This document shows, one piece after another, positions 9,871 through 52,305 of a stretch of 55,792 nt of DNA. A program made the position numbers and the translations under genes. The notes under the pieces were generated by a model that made no database searches, was not told where the DNA came from, and saw nothing but the letters and a program-made list of their open reading frames with translations. Origin of the DNA: a virus. Lineage: Duplodnaviria > Caudoviricetes. The first letter of the stretch is position 1; each line of letters opens with the position of its first letter. Location: IMG/VR virus record IMGVR_UViG_3300032288_001605, positions 1-55,792 of that record; one strand, written 5' to 3'.

Positions 9871-10542
9871 CTAACGTACCCACAACATTCCAACATCCGC
9901 TGTTGGTCGCAAGTTAGATTTTTTCCAACCCTCTGTTTCCCACCATTGAGTTGTATCTTCAATCCATAATTTCAAATCTTTTGCTTTACTCAATGGCTTA
10001 TATTCTTCAGGTTTTTCCAGATGATGAGTAATGTATTGAAGGGCAAACTCCTTATAGCCGTTAACTTTCTTAAGCCGTTTAAGTTGTTCGATATGCTCAT
10101 CGATAGTAACCAAACTCCATTCAAAACAGAGTTCAGCGGGCTTTTTTGTTAGCCCTGCAAAGACCGTGCTTTCAGCGCCCTCAACGTCTATTTTCACAAG
10201 GTCTGGCATGCCATATTTATCGATTAAGGTGTCCATCGTCAAAGTCGGGACGAGTACAGTTCGAAATTCTTTTCCAGCGTAAGGCATACCTTCTTTAGTC
10301 AGCCAATCCTTATTTAGAGTTGAAAGCCCGTCTTCAACGCATTCATAAAATTCCAGCCATTCATTATCTTTATCTGCAATCGCCAAGCGCAAAGGAGTGA
10401 CATTTAGATTATAGGTAAAGTTAGACGCCAGTTGAGCAAAGATTCTCGGAGCGGCTTCAACGGCAATAACTTTGTAGCCTTTTTGTAAACCCGCTAAAGT
10501 CGCATCGCCTTTATTGGCGCCAATATCAAATAACAGTGACAC
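9871..10542 (-). CDS. FkbM-family SAM-dependent methyltransferase
   Basis: FDIGANKG, VIAVEA and LVKIDVEGAE motifs. Confidence 0.85.
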   Translation of the reverse strand: MSLLFDIGANKGDATLAGLQKGYKVIAVEAAPRIFAQLASNFTYNLNVTPLRLAIADKDNEWLEFYECVEDGLSTLNKDWLTKEGMPYAGKEFRTVLVPTLTMDTLIDKYGMPDLVKIDVEGAESTVFAGLTKKPAELCFEWSLVTIDEHIEQLKRLKKVNGYKEFALQYITHHLEKPEEYKPLSKAKDLKLWIEDTTQWWETEGWKKSNLRPTADVGMLWVR

Positions 10543-30669: not shown

Positions 30670-30869
30670 ATTGGGATTTAATTATTACAACAGCGGGGAT
30701 GTTATTAACGATTCTGTTTTTTTCGCCGTTCTATCTCGCGTTGGTTTCAGCGTATGTGAAGATGCGTTCCAAAACTGAAATTGAGTTCGTTGCCGTAGTT
30801 GCAGAGTTACAAAAGAAAAACAATATCGATGATGCTATCGAACGTATGTTCGAAGGAGATGTGAAATGA
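30666..30869 (+). CDS. Small membrane protein
   Basis: N-terminal TM helix. Confidence 0.55.
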   Translation: MNWDLIITTAGMLLTILFFSPFYLALVSAYVKMRSKTEIEFVAVVAELQKKNNIDDAIERMFEGDVK

Positions 30870-31159
30870 AAATGAAGGCAGAAGAGTTAGACGGTCGCGG
30901 TCTAGAAGACCTAACCACCATTAATAACGTAATCCGTACCCATCAGAATCAGATGACGGATTTACTAAAACGCCGCAAACAGTTGATTTTGCGCCTTCGT
31001 AAGCAACGCATCACGTATCGAGAAATTGCCGAAGCCATGGGAGTATCAGAGCAGTTGATTTATAAAATCATCCGTAACGATATTGACCGTGAGCCAAAAT
31101 ACGACAAAGAAGGAAAATTAATTCGTCATAGGGGCAGACCACCTAAGCCGAATCTTTAA
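30866..31159 (+). CDS. HTH DNA-binding protein
   Basis: TYREIAEAMGVSEQLIYKII; C-terminal RGRP. Confidence 0.75.
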   Translation: MKMKAEELDGRGLEDLTTINNVIRTHQNQMTDLLKRRKQLILRLRKQRITYREIAEAMGVSEQLIYKIIRNDIDREPKYDKEGKLIRHRGRPPKPNL

Positions 31160-31166
31160 TGAGATT

Positions 31167-31242
31167 GCGGGGATGGTGTAATGCAAACACAACTAACCTT
31201 CCAGTTAGATGATGGCGGTTCGATTCCGACCTCTCCGCTCCA
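31167..31242 (+). tRNA. Non-canonical tRNA-Gly(UCC)-like element overlapping the mom-like start codon
   Basis: 76-nt cloverleaf: acceptor GCGGGGA/TCTCCGC, U discriminator and encoded CCA; D stem GTGT/ACAC; CTAAC/GTTAG stem with 6-nt CTTCCA loop; T loop TTCGATT on a bulged stem. Confidence 0.8.
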
Positions 31243-31864
31243 AAAAACAGATGCGGTAATTAAACCTATTTCATATCAACTCGCAATGGAAATTGTGGTT
31301 GAGCGGCATTATCTCCATAGAACGGCTCCCGTGAGTCACGCATTCGGGTTATTCCTTCCAGATGTCATAGAGCCTTTCGGTGTCGTTACCTATGGTGTGA
31401 GTCCCTCATCGACATTATTGCGAGGAATCTGTGGGGATGAAGAAAAGCAAAATGTGTATGAGTTGAATCGTTTATGGGTAGATGACAGATTGCAAAAGAA
31501 TGCGGAGAGTTTCTTAGTGAGTCGGAGCATGAAATTTCTTGATAAGGAAATCATTGTGTCGTTCGCCGATACAGCGCAGAATCATTTAGGAGTTATTTAT
31601 CAAGCCTGTAATTTTCTATACACAGGATTATCGAGCAAGTTCAAAGACCCAAAAATTGAAGGCATTGAAGGGCATCACGCAACATACGCTCATGGTCTGA
31701 CAAATGAGGAAGTCGTGGAGAAGTTCGGAAACAAAGTCTCATTCGTTGAGCGCTCGCGCAAGCATCGTTATATTTATTTCAACGCCAAGGGAAAAAGGCG
31801 AGAAGAATTGATTTCTAAATTACGGTATCCAGTTTTGCCATATCCAAAGGCGGCAGTTCAATGA
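31181..31864 (+). CDS. mom: Mu Mom-like DNA adenine modification enzyme
   Basis: HY, GVVTYG, ELNRLW, NAES, SFAD, G-x-IYQA-x-NF-x-Y-x-G, RYIYF and terminal PYPK follow the Mom motif order. Confidence 0.8.
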   Translation: MQTQLTFQLDDGGSIPTSPLQKTDAVIKPISYQLAMEIVVERHYLHRTAPVSHAFGLFLPDVIEPFGVVTYGVSPSSTLLRGICGDEEKQNVYELNRLWVDDRLQKNAESFLVSRSMKFLDKEIIVSFADTAQNHLGVIYQACNFLYTGLSSKFKDPKIEGIEGHHATYAHGLTNEEVVEKFGNKVSFVERSRKHRYIYFNAKGKRREELISKLRYPVLPYPKAAVQ

Positions 31865-33051
31865 AAGCCAATATCAATGTAGGACAGGTTGCGTCAGTTC
31901 CTCTTGCATCATTAAATTCATATCCGCTCAATCCGCGCCGCGGAGATATTGAAGCGATTGCTCAATCACTCAAAGCCCATGGTCAGTACAGACCTATCGT
32001 CGTGCAGTACGGGTCGAATTACATTCTCGCTGGTAATCACACCTATAAGGCGGCAAAGAAACTAGGCTGGAAGAAAATCAAGATTACCTATGTGGATGTA
32101 AGTGAGGAGCAAGCCAAACAAATCGTGCTCGCTGATAATCGACTCACCGACCTTGCAACCTATAACGAGCCGATGCTCAAGAATCTTTTAACTTCACTAC
32201 CTGACCTTGAAGGAACGGGATTCTCTGAAGCCGATGTAGCCAATCTGGATAGATTGATTTCGGGTCTGGATAACGAGCCTGTAGGGGGAACAAAGTCTTT
32301 ACCGAAAGACCCTGAAGTAAAGATTGCGGCATGGCGATTTACGGTCGAGACAGATGCCTTCAAAGCATGGGAAGAGCAGGTCATTACTGAGTTCGGAAAG
32401 TCGCGCTCTAAAGTCATATCAGGAATCAAACTTCGCCTCGGATTCCCAGAGCGTAAGCCTGTTATTGAAGATACCCTTTCAGAGCGTTCTAAGGCTGACC
32501 CTAGCGATGTAGAGACAGTTTCGGTCAATGAGATATCGACTCATCCTCTCAACCCAAGAGAAGGCGATATTGGACAGATTATCGAATCGCTCAAGACCAT
32601 GGGTCAATATCGACCAATTGTGGCTAATCGAAAGACCAAGAATGTCCTCTCGGGTAATCACACACTTCAAGCCGCGGTCGCCCTTGGATGGGAGAAGGTG
32701 GCAGTTCACTGGGTCGATGTAGATGAGATTGAAGAAATCCGTATCCTTATCGTGGATAACAGGACAAGCGACCTTGCAACCTATGATTCCGCTGAGTTGA
32801 ACAAACTTCTGACAAGTGCGGTCATCAATGGAACAGGATTCACCCGTGAAGATGTCATGGAGATTCTTTCAGGGGGTAAGACAAAGCCGGGGCATAACCC
32901 AGTAGGGCGAACCAATATCCGCGTCGGTTCATACTCCATGAGAGTTCACACTGAAGATTTGAATGAGTGGGCAAACGCTATCTATAACTGGCAAGATGTC
33001 GCTCAACTATTACAGATACCGCTTGAAGCATGTACAACAGAGGTAGAATAA
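31861..33051 (+). CDS. Protein with two tandem ParB/Srx-like domains
   Basis: PLNPR-x-GDI...SLK-x-x-GQYRPIV...GNHT...LGW-x-K...DNR-x-x-DLATY occurs twice. Confidence 0.85.
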   Translation: MKANINVGQVASVPLASLNSYPLNPRRGDIEAIAQSLKAHGQYRPIVVQYGSNYILAGNHTYKAAKKLGWKKIKITYVDVSEEQAKQIVLADNRLTDLATYNEPMLKNLLTSLPDLEGTGFSEADVANLDRLISGLDNEPVGGTKSLPKDPEVKIAAWRFTVETDAFKAWEEQVITEFGKSRSKVISGIKLRLGFPERKPVIEDTLSERSKADPSDVETVSVNEISTHPLNPREGDIGQIIESLKTMGQYRPIVANRKTKNVLSGNHTLQAAVALGWEKVAVHWVDVDEIEEIRILIVDNRTSDLATYDSAELNKLLTSAVINGTGFTREDVMEILSGGKTKPGHNPVGRTNIRVGSYSMRVHTEDLNEWANAIYNWQDVAQLLQIPLEACTTEVE

Positions 33052-46840: not shown

Positions 46841-47179
46841 ATGCAATCCATGGATTTTGTTGAAGATGCTCCCTGCCGTGGAGCAGACCCATGGCTATTT
46901 GACCAATCGCAATTAGCGCTGGCAATTATCGGTTTGCAATATTGCGTTGAATGCCCATTCAAACAAGAGTGCATTGAGTTGGTCGAACCAAGCAAAAATT
47001 ATTTTGATGGAATATGTGGCGGAATTGTTTGGCAAAACGGTAGGGTATTGGCTAAGTTAGATACCGAGGTTAAAAACCGTTTAATCATAGGGGGTAATGA
47101 TGACACCGAGAATGAAGATGCCGTGGCAATTCGAGGGAGCAAGTTGTTGGGGTCTGGACACGGAGATGTTCTTCCCTGA
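46841..47179 (+). CDS. whiB: WhiB-family transcription factor
   Basis: C-x-x-x-DP-x-LF...C-x-x-CP-x-x-x-x-C...GICGG. Confidence 0.75.
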   Translation: MQSMDFVEDAPCRGADPWLFDQSQLALAIIGLQYCVECPFKQECIELVEPSKNYFDGICGGIVWQNGRVLAKLDTEVKNRLIIGGNDDTENEDAVAIRGSKLLGSGHGDVLP

Positions 47180-50830: not shown

Positions 50831-51578
50831 CACAATTCGATTTGAATATGGCTTGAAGCCTGTATTGAAGCATCAAGAACATGACCAATCCAGTCATGGC
50901 AATTGGGCAACTGGCAAAAAGGGTGGCAGTGGATTAAGCCATCGAGAAATGTTTGAATTAAAACGCAATCGCCTAGACCCTATGGTAAAAAAAGTTTATG
51001 AGGCGGAAGAAAAGAATCATAACCAGATTCAAAATAAAAATATAGAACAACCGTCTGCGCCAATTCGTTCATCCTTTACTACTTTTGACGAGTACGATAA
51101 AGCATACAAAAAATATTCAAAAGACTTTCTCGATTGGTCAAAGAAAGTTACGACCGCTGTTATATCTCCTATTGCGGAAAAGCATTTGGACGGGACACCT
51201 ACGGGGGTCAGGGGATATGTTGGAGAAGTGTTACGAGCAGATTGGTTCGTTGAGCAATTTGGAAACGGTGGCAGTGCTGGAAACCCTGAAGTAAAGGTTT
51301 CATCTACTAGCGCGGCTGGCTCATATCAAATTGGATTTAAGGGAGACAAACCCTTGAGCATTTTGTCAGTAAATAGAGGCTATTCAAAAGCCGAACCTAA
51401 TATTGTTCACGAAATCGCTCACTACGCTACAACGATTAGTGCGACTGCACCGCATGATGGTCACGGAGTAGAGTTCGCACGAAACCATATATTTATTGCA
51501 GGTAAAGTAATGGGGCAAAGTTTTGCAGATGGACTTGCAAACGCTTACAGAGAGTCGGGTGTTCCTCTTGGAGACTAA
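50814..51578 (+). CDS. HDQ-tagged protein with zincin-like metallopeptidase domain
   Basis: KHQEHDQSSHGNW tag; IVHEIAH...HG-x-EF (HExxH plus downstream H). Confidence 0.7.
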   Translation: MNSLISTIRFEYGLKPVLKHQEHDQSSHGNWATGKKGGSGLSHREMFELKRNRLDPMVKKVYEAEEKNHNQIQNKNIEQPSAPIRSSFTTFDEYDKAYKKYSKDFLDWSKKVTTAVISPIAEKHLDGTPTGVRGYVGEVLRADWFVEQFGNGGSAGNPEVKVSSTSAAGSYQIGFKGDKPLSILSVNRGYSKAEPNIVHEIAHYATTISATAPHDGHGVEFARNHIFIAGKVMGQSFADGLANAYRESGVPLGD

Positions 51579-52305
51579 AGATTATGGTTGGGAGATTGTT
51601 GACCCAATTCATCCCGATTTAATACCTGAGCCATTTGAAGAAGAGTTCAAAAAACACGGCACACACGACCAAAAGACTCATGGAAATTGGTCTACGGGTG
51701 AGTCCGTACCAGATATCAATGAATGGAACAAGGCTGAGTTGGCTAAGTATCCATCAAGAGAAGCGCAAGAGTCTTATCTGTTAGATAATATTTTGAGTCA
51801 GCGCGTTCAAGGGTTTACGGGTAGAGAATTTTATTCAGCCGTTGAAAAATATCAAACATTACTTGGTTATAAGATGAATGAAGCGCTTCGTGACCCCCAA
51901 ATAAGTACAGACCAACTTGCCTATGAAATCGCTGGTTTAGATGGTGCAATTGAATCTGCCCCACCGTTAAAATCTGATGTAACCGTCTATCGCGGAATTA
52001 AAGGAAATGGATTAGATTTCTTTGAAGGACTTAAAAAAGGTGACGTTTATACAGATAAAGGTTTTACCTCAACAACTCTTGATACCAATGTGGCTACAAA
52101 GTTTTCAGTACAGGGGGATATGTACCAAGGTATTGTTCTTCGCATGAAATTGCCAGCAGGTACAAAAGGTCTCTATCCAACGAGTGTTACTGGATTAACT
52201 TCGTTATCCTCAAGAGAGGCAGAGTTCCTTCTCCCTCGAGATAGCAAATTCAAAATTCTTAGCAATGAAGGTAAAGTGTGGGATGTGGAGGTAGTCAATG
52301 ATTGA
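51568..52305 (+). CDS. HDQ-tagged ADP-ribosyltransferase (Vip2/Alt-like, R-S-E clade)
   Basis: KHGTHDQKTHGNW tag; Y-x-MN-x-x-LR, VYRG, GFTSTT and EAEFLLPR. Confidence 0.85.
   Translation: METKDYGWEIVDPIHPDLIPEPFEEEFKKHGTHDQKTHGNWSTGESVPDINEWNKAELAKYPSREAQESYLLDNILSQRVQGFTGREFYSAVEKYQTLLGYKMNEALRDPQISTDQLAYEIAGLDGAIESAPPLKSDVTVYRGIKGNGLDFFEGLKKGDVYTDKGFTSTTLDTNVATKFSVQGDMYQGIVLRMKLPAGTKGLYPTSVTGLTSLSSREAEFLLPRDSKFKILSNEGKVWDVEVVND

What the first reader, a model, noticed from the sequence alone, without database searches (positions are those of the whole stretch)
31167..31864. Non-canonical tRNA-Gly-like RNA overlapping the start of a Mom-like DNA hypermodification gene
Seen in sequence: a 76-nt cloverleaf ending in CCA. 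It carries the bacterial tRNA-Gly acceptor identity set (G1-C72, C2-G71, G3-C70, U73) and UCC in the anticodon loop. It departs from translational tRNAs in three ways: no GG in the D loop (AATGCAA), a 6-nt (or 8-nt) anticodon loop, and a bulged A in the T stem, where EF-Tu binds. The Mom-like ATG (31181) lies in the D loop and the T arm encodes GGSIPTSPLQ. The next in-frame ATG would cut into the conserved N-terminal strand. Established: Mu Mom makes a carbamoylmethyl adenine. I recall recent work reporting Gly-tRNA(Gly) as its donor, which should be verified. Staphylococci use non-proteinogenic tRNA-Gly species that avoid EF-Tu. Inference: the phage encodes either a dedicated glycyl-donor tRNA for DNA modification or a tRNA-mimic operator. 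tRNA processing or Mom/GlyRS binding would be mutually exclusive with mom translation, giving an autoregulated enzyme and co-substrate unit.
Basis: partly seen in the sequence, partly recalled or inferred. Interest (0 to 1): 0.93.

Follow-up and report, generated by a model that had tools for sequence, protein, structure and literature searches.

The report
tRNA-Gly-like gene nested in mom
A phage gene for a Mom-type enzyme, which in phage Mu takes glycine from Gly-tRNA to modify DNA, carries inside its own coding sequence a conserved, oddly shaped glycine-tRNA-like RNA that may be the enzyme's private glycine carrier.

Summary
Window 31167-31242 (+) is a 76-nt cloverleaf with G1-C72, C2-G71, G3-C70, U73, CCA, a 6-nt loop CUUCCA and a bulged A in the T stem. 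The Mom ATG (31181) lies in its D loop. ARAGORN and Rfam find it only weakly (25.9 bits, cut-off 29).

It is one member of a large phage family. Covariation supports all four stems (68 distinct sequences, 98% of cells paired, 14 of 22 pairs changed on both sides, 0 of 500 shuffles as high). A DNA-pattern scan that knew nothing of Mom found a same-strand Mom-family ORF at 73 of 79 usable loci. The ORF reads through the element in one frame at its 5' end (63), at its 3' end (7), or abuts it (3).

That frame is kept free of stops and synonymous sites are constrained. The loop always keeps CC, while position 34 varies. The pattern is nearly absent from bacterial genomes (10 hits).

Mu Mom uses Gly-tRNAGly (Silva et al. 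2026). Best reading (0.55): a non-decoding glycyl-donor tRNA co-transcribed with mom, whose maturation competes with mom translation. No RNA or biochemical data exist. The missing GG in the D loop is a minority trait, shared by 15 of 105 distinct elements.

The parts
31167..31242 (+). 76-nt tRNA-Gly-like element (whole cloverleaf including U73 and CCA)
   Evidence: ARAGORN; Rfam tRNA 25.9 bits; own covariance model R1 94.5 bits; covariation in relatives
31167..31173 (+). acceptor stem 5' strand GCGGGGA, pairs with 31232-31238. GGGGA also lies 7 nt upstream of the ATG as a possible Shine-Dalgarno sequence
   Evidence: sequence. Pairs 4-69 and 5-68 covary in relatives. The SD reading is inference
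31176..31190 (+). D arm: stem GUGU/ACAC, loop AAUGCAA holding the mom start codon; G19 replaced by C
   Evidence: sequence; relatives have AAUGGAA or AAUGGCA; all four D-stem pairs covary
31192..31209 (+). anticodon arm: stem 31192-31197 / 31204-31209 (first pair is an A.A mismatch here), 6-nt loop CUUCCA at 31198-31203
   Evidence: all six stem pairs change on both sides across relatives, including the loop-closing pair C-G/U-A; loop statistics
31214..31231 (+). T arm GGCGG UUCGAUU CCG-A-CC with bulged A at 31229
   Evidence: G-C to A-U changes at pairs 48-65 (L026) and 49-64 (L088) fit only the bulge register
31232..31242 (+). acceptor 3' strand UCUCCGC, discriminator U (31239), encoded CCA (31240-31242)
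   Evidence: sequence. All 13 distinct elements and both L062/L065-type copies from the protein-based search end in CCA
31181..31864 (+). Mom-family gene (227 aa). Residues 1-21 are encoded by the element and predicted disordered
   Evidence: Pfam PF25680 E 9e-42; PHROG 1384; PDB 8BV8 Mu Mom E 4.7e-13; AF2 pLDDT 41-49 for residues 1-20 against 86-97 in most of the core
30866..31159 (+). upstream HTH protein gene, stop 7 nt before the element; same transcription direction
   Evidence: Pfam HTH_23; no promoter- or terminator-like site between it and the element
31861..33051 (+). downstream ParB-like gene, start overlapping the mom stop (ATGA)
   Evidence: Pfam ParB_N; PHROG 8071 E 9e-151

Best explanation
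The element is a phage-borne, non-decoding tRNA-Gly-like RNA gene. It is transcribed as part of the mom mRNA, and its sequence also encodes a disordered tail of the Mom protein.

Proposed mechanism (inferred): a share of the transcripts folds into the cloverleaf. Host tRNA-processing enzymes cut it out (RNase P at G1, a 3' nuclease after the encoded CCA). Host GlyRS charges it through G1-C72, C2-G71, G3-C70, U73 and C35-C36. Mom then uses it as a private glycyl donor to modify adenine in DNA.

The shortened anticodon loop and the bulged T stem would keep it away from the ribosome and EF-Tu, so Mom does not compete with translation for Gly-tRNAGly. Because the RNA lies inside the ORF, each transcript gives either a tRNA or Mom protein. 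In the window the possible SD and the AUG lie in the acceptor stem and D loop. This would give much carrier and little of a potentially toxic enzyme.

Shown here: the structure, its conservation and covariation, the dual coding, the tight same-strand linkage with Mom, and the retention of Gly identity elements. Inferred: excision, charging, EF-Tu and ribosome avoidance, use by Mom, and the competition.
For: 1. Structure. Among 13 distinct elements upstream of close Mom homologs, 97.9% of cells pair and 9 of 22 pairs change on both sides; 0 of 500 shuffles reach this, and slid controls pair at 34-49%. Among 68 distinct elements the figures are 98.1%, 14 of 22 pairs, 332 cells, 0 of 500, and 39-54% for slid controls.

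2. Linkage. Every locus whose Mom match covers query residues 1-223 has the element 14 nt before the ATG (L001-L011, L026, L029, L084-L088). A DNA pattern taken from the T arm and acceptor end alone gave at least 120 stretches in IMG/VR. Of the 79 usable full-flank loci, 73 have a same-strand Mom-family ORF that overlaps or touches the element (67 by Pfam, 6 more by my own HMM). In 40 further loci with only 300-nt flanks, 35 ORFs were sent and 27 give Pfam Mom at E <= 0.01.

3. Position varies. The element is inside the 5' end in 63 loci, inside the 3' end right after ...PYPK in 7, 12 nt upstream in 1 and 7 nt downstream in 2. In L113 it lies between two Mom paralogs. A second, unrelated-looking tRNA-Gly-like RNA with A73 lies 9-11 nt before mom in 3 of 3 AT-rich loci. 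This fits a linked gene better than a start-site operator.

4. Gly identity without decoding. All 99 loops scored contain CC; NUUCCA dominates, and variants AAACCA, GACCA, UAGCCA and AUCCCA occur. Loop size is 6 nt in 72, 5 nt in 23 and 7 nt in only 2. U73 and CCA are present in all 13 distinct protein-found elements.

5. RNA-level selection. Third-codon-position identity is 0.55-0.90 in element codons against 0.36-0.51 in the rest of mom.

6. Translation through it. A stop in the GGS frame occurs in 6 of 105 distinct elements. Three of the six (L174, L216/L239) are the copies that abut mom without being embedded. The other frames have stops in 81 and 88. In the variable anticodon arm alone the counts are 1 against 22 and 18.

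7. Not a host tRNA copy. The pattern gives 10 hits in 185,579 species genomes, all MAGs, and 7 of the 10 lie beside a Mom ORF.

8. The enzyme looks active. Residues aligned to Mu R111, S124, D149, H58/Y59 and Y159 are conserved.

9. Biochemical premise. Mu Mom needs Gly-tRNAGly and rejects Gly-tRNAAla (PMC13219725, section 10).

10. Precedent. S. aureus non-proteogenic tRNAGly bind EF-Tu poorly and are preferred by FmhB (PMC7826273, abstract).

11. Element-less Mom lineages often have a canonical tRNA-Gly(UCC) 0.5-2.2 kb away.
Against: There are no RNA data. Folding energy alone is unremarkable (z -1.2), and in 181 nt of mRNA context the minimum-energy fold does not form the acceptor stem.

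Cutting a tRNA out of an ORF destroys that mRNA, which is an odd design. Translation through the element would also unfold it.

Mu Mom accepts all three host tRNAGly isoacceptors (PMC13219725, section 10), so a private tRNA is not a general requirement.

A 6-nt loop might impair GlyRS reading of C35-C36.

The window's own copy is a weak member. It has G19 changed to C, an A.A mismatch at the top of the anticodon stem, and an Rfam score below the cut-off.

The features used as the DNA pattern (T arm with bulge, CGCUCCA) are conserved by construction in that set. Only the 13 protein-found sequences are unbiased for them. The 68-sequence alignment was fitted to my model.

Many loci are related, so the counts are not independent events. 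N-terminal tails with decayed tRNA motifs exist (P0021, P0023, P0025), so the RNA is dispensable in some lineages.
Confidence: 0.55

Rival explanations
1. The element is a cis-acting tRNA mimic only. It stays in the mom mRNA and controls Mom synthesis or mRNA life. It could bind Mom itself, GlyRS or RNase P, or simply hide the SD and AUG, much as the Com-relieved hairpin does for Mu mom (the Mu detail is recalled). It would not serve as a glycine carrier.
For: In the window clade the AUG lies in the D loop and a GGGGA or GGUGAU stretch lies in the acceptor strand. In 63 of 79 loci the element covers the first codons of Mom. The ORF is kept open through it, so intact mRNA matters. Silva et al. 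suggest that Mom recognises mainly the acceptor end of tRNAGly (PMC13219725, section 14), which is the most conserved part here.
Against: In 7 loci the element is at the 3' end of mom and in 2 just downstream. In 4 loci it ends 9-12 nt before the start (L174, L062, L065, L298). An operator for initiation cannot explain these.

A whole cloverleaf with a covarying anticodon stem, invariant CC in the loop, U73 and an encoded CCA is more than an acceptor-arm mimic would need. Element-less relatives carry canonical tRNA-Gly genes nearby.
Confidence: 0.2
2. It is an ordinary phage tRNA-Gly for translation (codon supply, or replacement of host tRNA cleaved by defence nucleases) that happens to lie next to mom.
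For: Phages often carry tRNA-Gly(UCC). The T loop UUCRANY is canonical and G18-G19 are present in 90 of 105 elements. The D arm of some members is identical to that of canonical phage tRNA-Gly genes found near other mom genes. Four of 14 tested relatives pass the Rfam tRNA cut-off.
Against: Only 2 of 99 scored loops have 7 nt. Position 34 is free, and in some members position 33 is A. All members have a bulged T stem. Rfam scores are 25.9-33.4 bits where reported. By recollection, not measured here, typical tRNAs score far higher.

Linkage with Mom at 73 of 79 loci, on the same strand and mostly inside the ORF, is not expected for a codon-supply tRNA. The window has no other tRNA.
Confidence: 0.08
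3. It is a relic with no RNA function: a decayed tRNA gene or attP core captured by the mom ORF and now conserved only as a protein tail.
For: The window copy scores below the Rfam cut-off and lacks G19. Some homologs keep the tail but have lost the tRNA motifs (P0021, P0023, P0025). tRNA genes are common phage integration sites (general knowledge).
Against: Compensatory changes occur in all four stems while the peptide changes freely, for example TQLTFQLDD against IRVVHPLFQVEG. Synonymous sites are constrained. The peptide is predicted disordered and occurs at either end of Mom.

No integrase was found among the 66 window ORFs scanned at E <= 1e-5. The sequence is almost absent from bacterial genomes.
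Confidence: 0.05

Closest known systems
Non-proteogenic tRNAGly of Staphylococcus aureus used by FmhB/FemA/FemB (Rietmeyer et al. 2021, PMC7826273, abstract read; Giege and Eriani 2023, PMC9976931, passages read)
   Same: Both are extra tRNAGly species that keep glycine identity. Both deviate in the D and T arms, where EF-Tu and the transferase discriminate. Both are proposed or shown to feed an aminoacyl-tRNA-dependent transferase rather than the ribosome.
   Different: The staphylococcal tRNAs are chromosomal, free-standing genes with normal 7-nt loops and regular T stems, and that lineage is reported only in staphylococci. The element here is phage-borne, has a 6-nt loop and a bulged T stem, lies inside the coding sequence of the enzyme, and the acceptor substrate would be DNA. 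Its function here is untested.
Mu Mom and host Gly-tRNAGly (Silva et al. 2026, PMC13219725)
   Same: Same enzyme family (Pfam Mom; 8BV8 E 4.7e-13). Residues aligned to Mu R111, S124, D149, H58/Y59 and Y159 are conserved.
   Different: The paper describes Mu as scavenging host tRNAGly, all isoacceptors. Its text has no hit for phage-encoded tRNA, adjacent, neighborhood or genomic context. The residue aligned to Mu R151 is Ala in the pairwise alignment. Mu controls mom translation with Com and an mRNA hairpin (recalled), not with a tRNA-like fold.
Ordinary phage-encoded tRNA genes (Rfam RF00005)
   Same: Cloverleaf, canonical T loop, encoded CCA, and a D arm like that of phage tRNA-Gly(UCC).
   Different: Non-canonical anticodon loop size, a bulged T stem, a marginal Rfam score, and dual coding with a protein ORF.
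tRNA-like structures of plant RNA viruses, and bacterial tRNA-mimic operators such as thrS (recalled)
   Same: A tRNA-shaped fold inside a longer functional RNA. Synthetase identity elements are retained, and there is possible control of translation.
   Different: Viral tRNA-like structures are 3'-terminal so that they can be charged in place, whereas this element is internal. The thrS-type operator mimics only an anticodon arm and lies in a leader, whereas this is a full cloverleaf inside an ORF, at either end of it.

Membership tests
tRNA (Rfam RF00005) | score at or above the curated gathering score of 29 bits | tested here: not met
   Window 25.9 bits, E 0.004. Of 14 related loci, 4 reach 31.7-33.4 bits.
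tRNA (elongator, canonical) | four-stem cloverleaf supported by covariation | tested here: met
   98% of cells paired, with compensatory changes in all four stems.
tRNA (elongator, canonical) | 7-nt anticodon loop with U33 and a 3-nt anticodon | tested here: not met
   The window loop is CUUCCA (6 nt) and ARAGORN reports a 2-nt anticodon. In the family, loop size is 6 nt in 72, 5 nt in 23 and 7 nt in 2 of 99 scored.
tRNA (elongator, canonical) | regular 5-bp T stem and G18-G19 in the D loop | tested here: not met
   Bulged A at 31229, with the bulge register supported by covariation. The window D loop is AAUGCAA; 90 of 105 family members do have GG.
Bacterial tRNAGly identity set (PMC9976931: U73, G1-C72, C2-G71, C35, C36) | presence of the determinants in the sequence | tested here: met
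   G1-C72, C2-G71, G3-C70 and U73 are invariant in 13 of 13 distinct elements. CC is present in all 99 scored loops.
Bacterial tRNAGly identity set | glycylation by GlyRS | not testable with these tools
   Needs an in vitro charging assay.
Non-proteogenic tRNAGly (Staphylococcus type) | weak EF-Tu and ribosome binding and preferential use by the transferase | not testable with these tools
   Only the irregular T stem and short loop suggest it.
Non-proteogenic tRNAGly (Staphylococcus type) | membership of the staphylococcal lineage (PMC7826273, abstract) | tested here: not met
   The element is in a phage record with a WhiB-like gene. The family is found in IMG/VR viromes and MAGs of several phyla.
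Mom family (Pfam PF25680) | profile match above the cut-off, and key residues | tested here: met
   143.4 bits against a cut-off of 27.1. R97, S110, D130, H43/Y44 and Y140 align to Mu R111, S124, D149, H58/Y59 and Y159. Mu R151 aligns to A132.
Mom family | Gly-tRNA-dependent formation of N6-carbamoylmethyl-adenine | not testable with these tools
   Needs an enzyme assay or nucleoside LC-MS.
Translational operator / tRNA mimic | overlaps the ribosome-binding site or start codon of the regulated gene | tested here: inconclusive
   Met in the window and in 63 of 79 loci. Not met in the 7 loci with the element at the 3' end, the 2 with it just downstream, and the 4 where it ends 9-12 nt before the start.
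attP or tRNA-gene integration core | adjacent integrase and identity to a host tRNA gene | tested here: not met
   No integrase among 66 window ORFs at E <= 1e-5. The pattern gives only 10 hits in 185,579 species genomes.
3'-terminal viral tRNA-like structure | the CCA forms the 3' end of the functional RNA | tested here: not met
   The CCA is internal to the mom ORF.

The most novel reading that the evidence does not exclude
Phages have evolved a self-contained DNA-hypermodification cassette. In it, the gene for a non-decoding glycine carrier tRNA is written inside the coding sequence of the Mom enzyme that consumes it. One transcript then yields either the carrier or the enzyme, and tRNA maturation itself sets the enzyme-to-co-substrate ratio. 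This would be a new class of non-ribosomal tRNA (6-nt loop, bulged T stem) and a new kind of gene-in-gene regulation.
Probability: 0.45. Interest if true: 0.92.

Novelty: new variant of a known kind. Interest (0 to 1): 0.86.

Why it matters
Mom was shown only in 2023-2026 to use Gly-tRNAGly, and that work treats the tRNA as scavenged from the host.

A conserved glycine-tRNA-like RNA that appears unsuited to decoding and is fused to many Mom-family genes would mean several things. Some phages bring their own co-substrate. tRNA-dependent DNA modification has its own tRNA lineage, parallel to the cell-wall tRNAGly of staphylococci. A tRNA and a protein can share the same nucleotides under dual selection.

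It also gives a directly testable system for three questions: how aminoacyl-tRNA is partitioned between the ribosome and other enzymes, what Mom recognises on tRNA, and how a toxic DNA modifier is kept in check.

There is a practical point for annotation. These RNAs score at or below tRNA-finder thresholds and lie inside ORFs, so annotation pipelines may well miss them.

Tried and rejected
- Folding energy as evidence of structure: z -1.2 for the 76 nt and -1.1 for 181 nt. It is not informative, so I relied on covariation.
- RNA evidence: no RNA holder is listed among the 22 runs for the 999-nt query. Read laying was not used because only DNA contigs were on offer.
- Cultured phages: blastn with the element and its flanks gave no match in 50,697 phage records. 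tblastn with the window Mom gave 153 records, but none of the 40 listed covers residues 1-19. Microbacterium phages Lifes and Lupine have no room for the element. tblastn with a divergent fused Mom (L167) hit only Paenibacillus phages, from residue 65 on. I found no isolate with the fused form.
- attP or integration idea: rejected, as set out under the relic rival.
- Promoter and terminator scan: nothing near the element, and counts are at shuffle level.
- 'Free-standing copy in L113': rejected on inspection, because the element there overlaps the start of a second Mom paralog.
- N(-1) preference for U, as a hint of RNase P processing (the preference itself is recalled): T in 58 of 111 contexts against 25% T in the background. 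This is confounded by the Cys codon UGC and by relatedness, so it is a weak hint only.
- The earlier-findings database was not open.
- Print search: searches, plus a term search inside PMC13219725, found no report of a tRNA next to or inside mom homologs. The supplements of that paper were not opened and could hold gene-neighbourhood data.
- The October 2026 preprint on bacterial tRNA mimics (abstract read) concerns other RNAs.
Full report
**What is in the window**

The window is a 55.8-kb virus record, about 92% complete. PHROG matches mark it as a tailed phage: major tail protein, tape measure, portal and terminase, plus Gam, Erf, an O-like replication protein, HNH and RusA. A WhiB-like gene hints at an actinobacterial host. 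No integrase was found among the 66 ORFs scanned at E <= 1e-5.

All on the + strand lie an HTH gene (30866-31159), then 7 nt, then the finding (31167-31242). The Mom-family ORF (31181-31864; Pfam PF25680, E 9e-42, domain residues 26-223) overlaps the finding. A ParB-like gene follows, and its start overlaps the mom stop. No promoter-like or terminator-like site separates these genes.

**Checking the observation**

- a 7-bp acceptor stem, GCGGGGA with UCUCCGC;
- a 4-bp D stem with loop AAUGCAA;
- an anticodon stem with the 6-nt loop CUUCCA;
- a T arm, GGCGG-UUCGAUU-CCG(A)CC, with a bulged A at 31229;
- U73 and CCA.

ARAGORN reports tRNA-??? with a 2-nt anticodon. Rfam's tRNA model gives 25.9 bits, E 0.004, under the 29-bit cut-off.

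The mom ATG is in the D loop. An in-frame TGA lies upstream, and no ATG, GTG or TTG lies in frame before M36, which is inside the first helix of the predicted fold. Folding energy alone is not distinctive (z -1.2), so the case rests on comparison with relatives.

**Relatives found through the protein**

Of the 120 best Mom homologs listed, 28 begin with the peptide that the element encodes (...GGSIPTSPLQ...). Those called from further upstream read CGDGVM and the like, which is the acceptor strand.

In DNA, every locus whose match covers residues 1-223 has a 76-nt element 14 nt before the ATG. The 13 distinct sequences differ by compensatory changes. The anticodon stem reads CUAAC/GUUAG, GAAAC/GUUUU, AUGGC/GCUAU, CAGGU/ACCUG or ACGGC/GUCGU. 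Acceptor pairs 4-69 and 5-68 covary, as does one D-stem pair. T-stem pairs 48-65 and 49-64 covary in a way that fits only the bulged-A register.

Overall 97.9% of cells pair and 9 of 22 pairs change on both sides. None of 500 shuffles reaches this, and slid controls pair at 34-49%. The loop-closing pair switches between C-G and U-A, so the 6-nt loop is a selected feature. The D loop of the relatives is AAUGGAA or AAUGGCA. The window's missing GG is its own substitution.

**Relatives found without reference to the protein**

I scanned IMG/VR with a DNA pattern taken from the T arm and the 3' acceptor end only. The 79 usable full-flank loci hold 63 distinct elements.

A same-strand Mom-family ORF overlaps or touches the element in 73 of the 79. 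Pfam found 67 of the 78 ORFs sent, and my own HMM found 6 more. The arrangements are:
- 63 loci: the ORF reads through the element at its 5' end, often starting 4-80 nt, and up to about 400 nt, upstream of it.
- 7 loci: the element follows the last conserved residues ...PYPK and is read as a C-terminal tail.
- 1 locus: mom starts 12 nt after the element.
- 2 loci: mom ends 7 nt before the element.
- 5 loci: no Mom seen.
- 1 locus: cut by the contig end.

A further 40 loci have only 300-nt flanks. From these, 35 ORFs were sent and 27 give Pfam Mom at E <= 0.01, 14 of them above the curated cut-off.

With the element-encoded part removed, the 63 5'-type Mom cores fall into 8 groups at 40% identity. 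In L113 the element lies between two Mom paralogs that are 29% identical, and it overlaps the start of the second.

The wider alignment of 68 distinct sequences gives 98.1% of cells paired, 14 of 22 pairs changed on both sides, 332 such cells, and 0 of 500 shuffles as high. Two cautions apply. That alignment was fitted to my model, and the pattern fixed the T arm and acceptor end.

The same pattern gives only 10 hits in one genome each of 185,579 species. All are MAGs, and 7 of the 10 lie beside a Mom ORF. The element is therefore not a copy of a host tRNA.

**Other tRNA-Gly genes beside mom**

A second tRNA-Gly-like RNA, different in sequence, lies 9-11 nt before mom in 3 of 3 AT-rich loci. 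It has A73, an odd T loop and no GG in the D loop. Several element-less Mom lineages have a canonical tRNA-Gly(UCC) 0.5-2.2 kb away. These loci are related to each other, so this is only suggestive.

**Dual coding**

The frame that reads GGS.PTSPLQ has a stop in only 6 of 105 distinct elements. Three of those six (L174, L216/L239) are the copies that abut mom without being embedded. The other two frames have stops in 81 and 88. Within the variable anticodon arm the counts are 1 against 22 and 18. So the ORF through the element is maintained.

The RNA is also under its own selection. Third-position identity is 0.55-0.90 in element codons against 0.36-0.51 elsewhere in mom. The encoded peptide is predicted disordered (pLDDT 41-49 for residues 1-20) and occurs at either end of the protein, so it is unlikely to be the selected product.

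**Identity elements**

Bacterial glycine identity rests on U73, G1-C72, C2-G71, C35 and C36 (PMC9976931, passages read). All are present here. In the loops CC is invariant, while position 34 varies (U, A, C, G) and position 33 is A in some members. Loop size is 6 nt in 72, 5 nt in 23 and 7 nt in 2 of the 99 scored.

**The enzyme**

The window protein matches the Mu Mom structure 8BV8 (E 4.7e-13). It keeps the residues aligned to Mu R111, S124, D149, H58/Y59 and Y159, but not R151.

Silva et al. show that Mu Mom needs Gly-tRNAGly, accepts all three E. coli isoacceptors and rejects Gly-tRNAAla. They describe the tRNA as scavenged from the host. Their text does not mention tRNA genes beside mom homologs. 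I did not open their supplements.

**Interpretation**

The best reading is a dedicated, non-decoding glycyl-carrier tRNA that travels with, and inside, the mom gene. The closest functional analogue is the non-proteogenic tRNAGly of S. aureus, which binds EF-Tu poorly and is preferred by FmhB (PMC7826273, abstract).

The nesting has a consequence: cutting out the tRNA destroys that copy of the mRNA. A 5'-type transcript loses its start, and a 3'-type transcript loses its stop. Carrier and enzyme would therefore be made from competing fates of one transcript.

Excision, charging, EF-Tu avoidance and use by Mom are all inferred. A purely cis-acting mimic remains possible, but it is weakened by the loci where the element sits at or after the 3' end of mom. 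An ordinary decoding tRNA and a functionless relic are both unlikely, for the reasons given under the rivals.

**Caveats**

- No RNA data could be found.
- No cultured phage with the fused form was found.
- Many loci are related, so counts are not independent events.
- The window's own copy is one of the weaker members of the family.

Noticed in passing
L021, L024, L027, L028, L097-L111, L119, L143, L144 (about 460 nt downstream of mom, opposite strand); L012, L014, L023, L025 (about 2.2 kb downstream): Canonical phage tRNA-Gly(UCC) genes with an encoded CCA lie close to Mom homologs that lack the fused element. L114 has a CCC version. tRNA-Arg(UCU) occupies the same slot in L019, L020 and L022. 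The D arm of these canonical tRNAs is identical to that of some fused elements.
   Followed up: partly
L288 and L289 (MAG scaffolds): An element of the same build (6-bp stem, 6-nt loop AAACCA, bulged T stem). No Mom-family ORF turned up within about 1 kb: in L288 by inspection of the ORF list, in L289 by Pfam on two ORFs. In L288 it is intergenic in a 100-kb scaffold. This may be a non-phage or remnant copy.
   Followed up: partly
L113:1492-2699: Two tandem Mom-family genes that are 29% identical, with the tRNA-like element exactly between them. A WhiB gene and a Cas4-like nuclease gene lie upstream, and an HNH gene lies downstream.
   Followed up: partly
L285 (Microbacterium phage Lupine, MK919474.1 about 45.6-49.2 kb): The Mom homolog lies next to polynucleotide kinase and RNA ligase genes, a pair typical of tRNA repair.
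   Followed up: no
P0021, P0023, P0025 (homolog proteins): These have N-terminal tails of the same length as the element-encoded peptide but with the tRNA motifs decayed (for example ...DEKPNLIEPFQK...). The RNA seems to have been lost while the upstream start was kept.
   Followed up: no
window 31861-33051: The ParB-like protein matches ParB-family profiles in two stretches, and its start overlaps the mom stop (ATGA). It is the best match to PHROG 8071 and is followed directly by the small and large terminase genes.
   Followed up: no
window 46841-47179; 51523-52305; 9871-10542 (-): A WhiB-like regulator (host hint: Actinobacteria), a head-morphogenesis-type protein with an ADP-ribosyltransferase-like domain, and a methyltransferase-like ORF on the opposite strand among the tail-fibre genes.
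   Followed up: no
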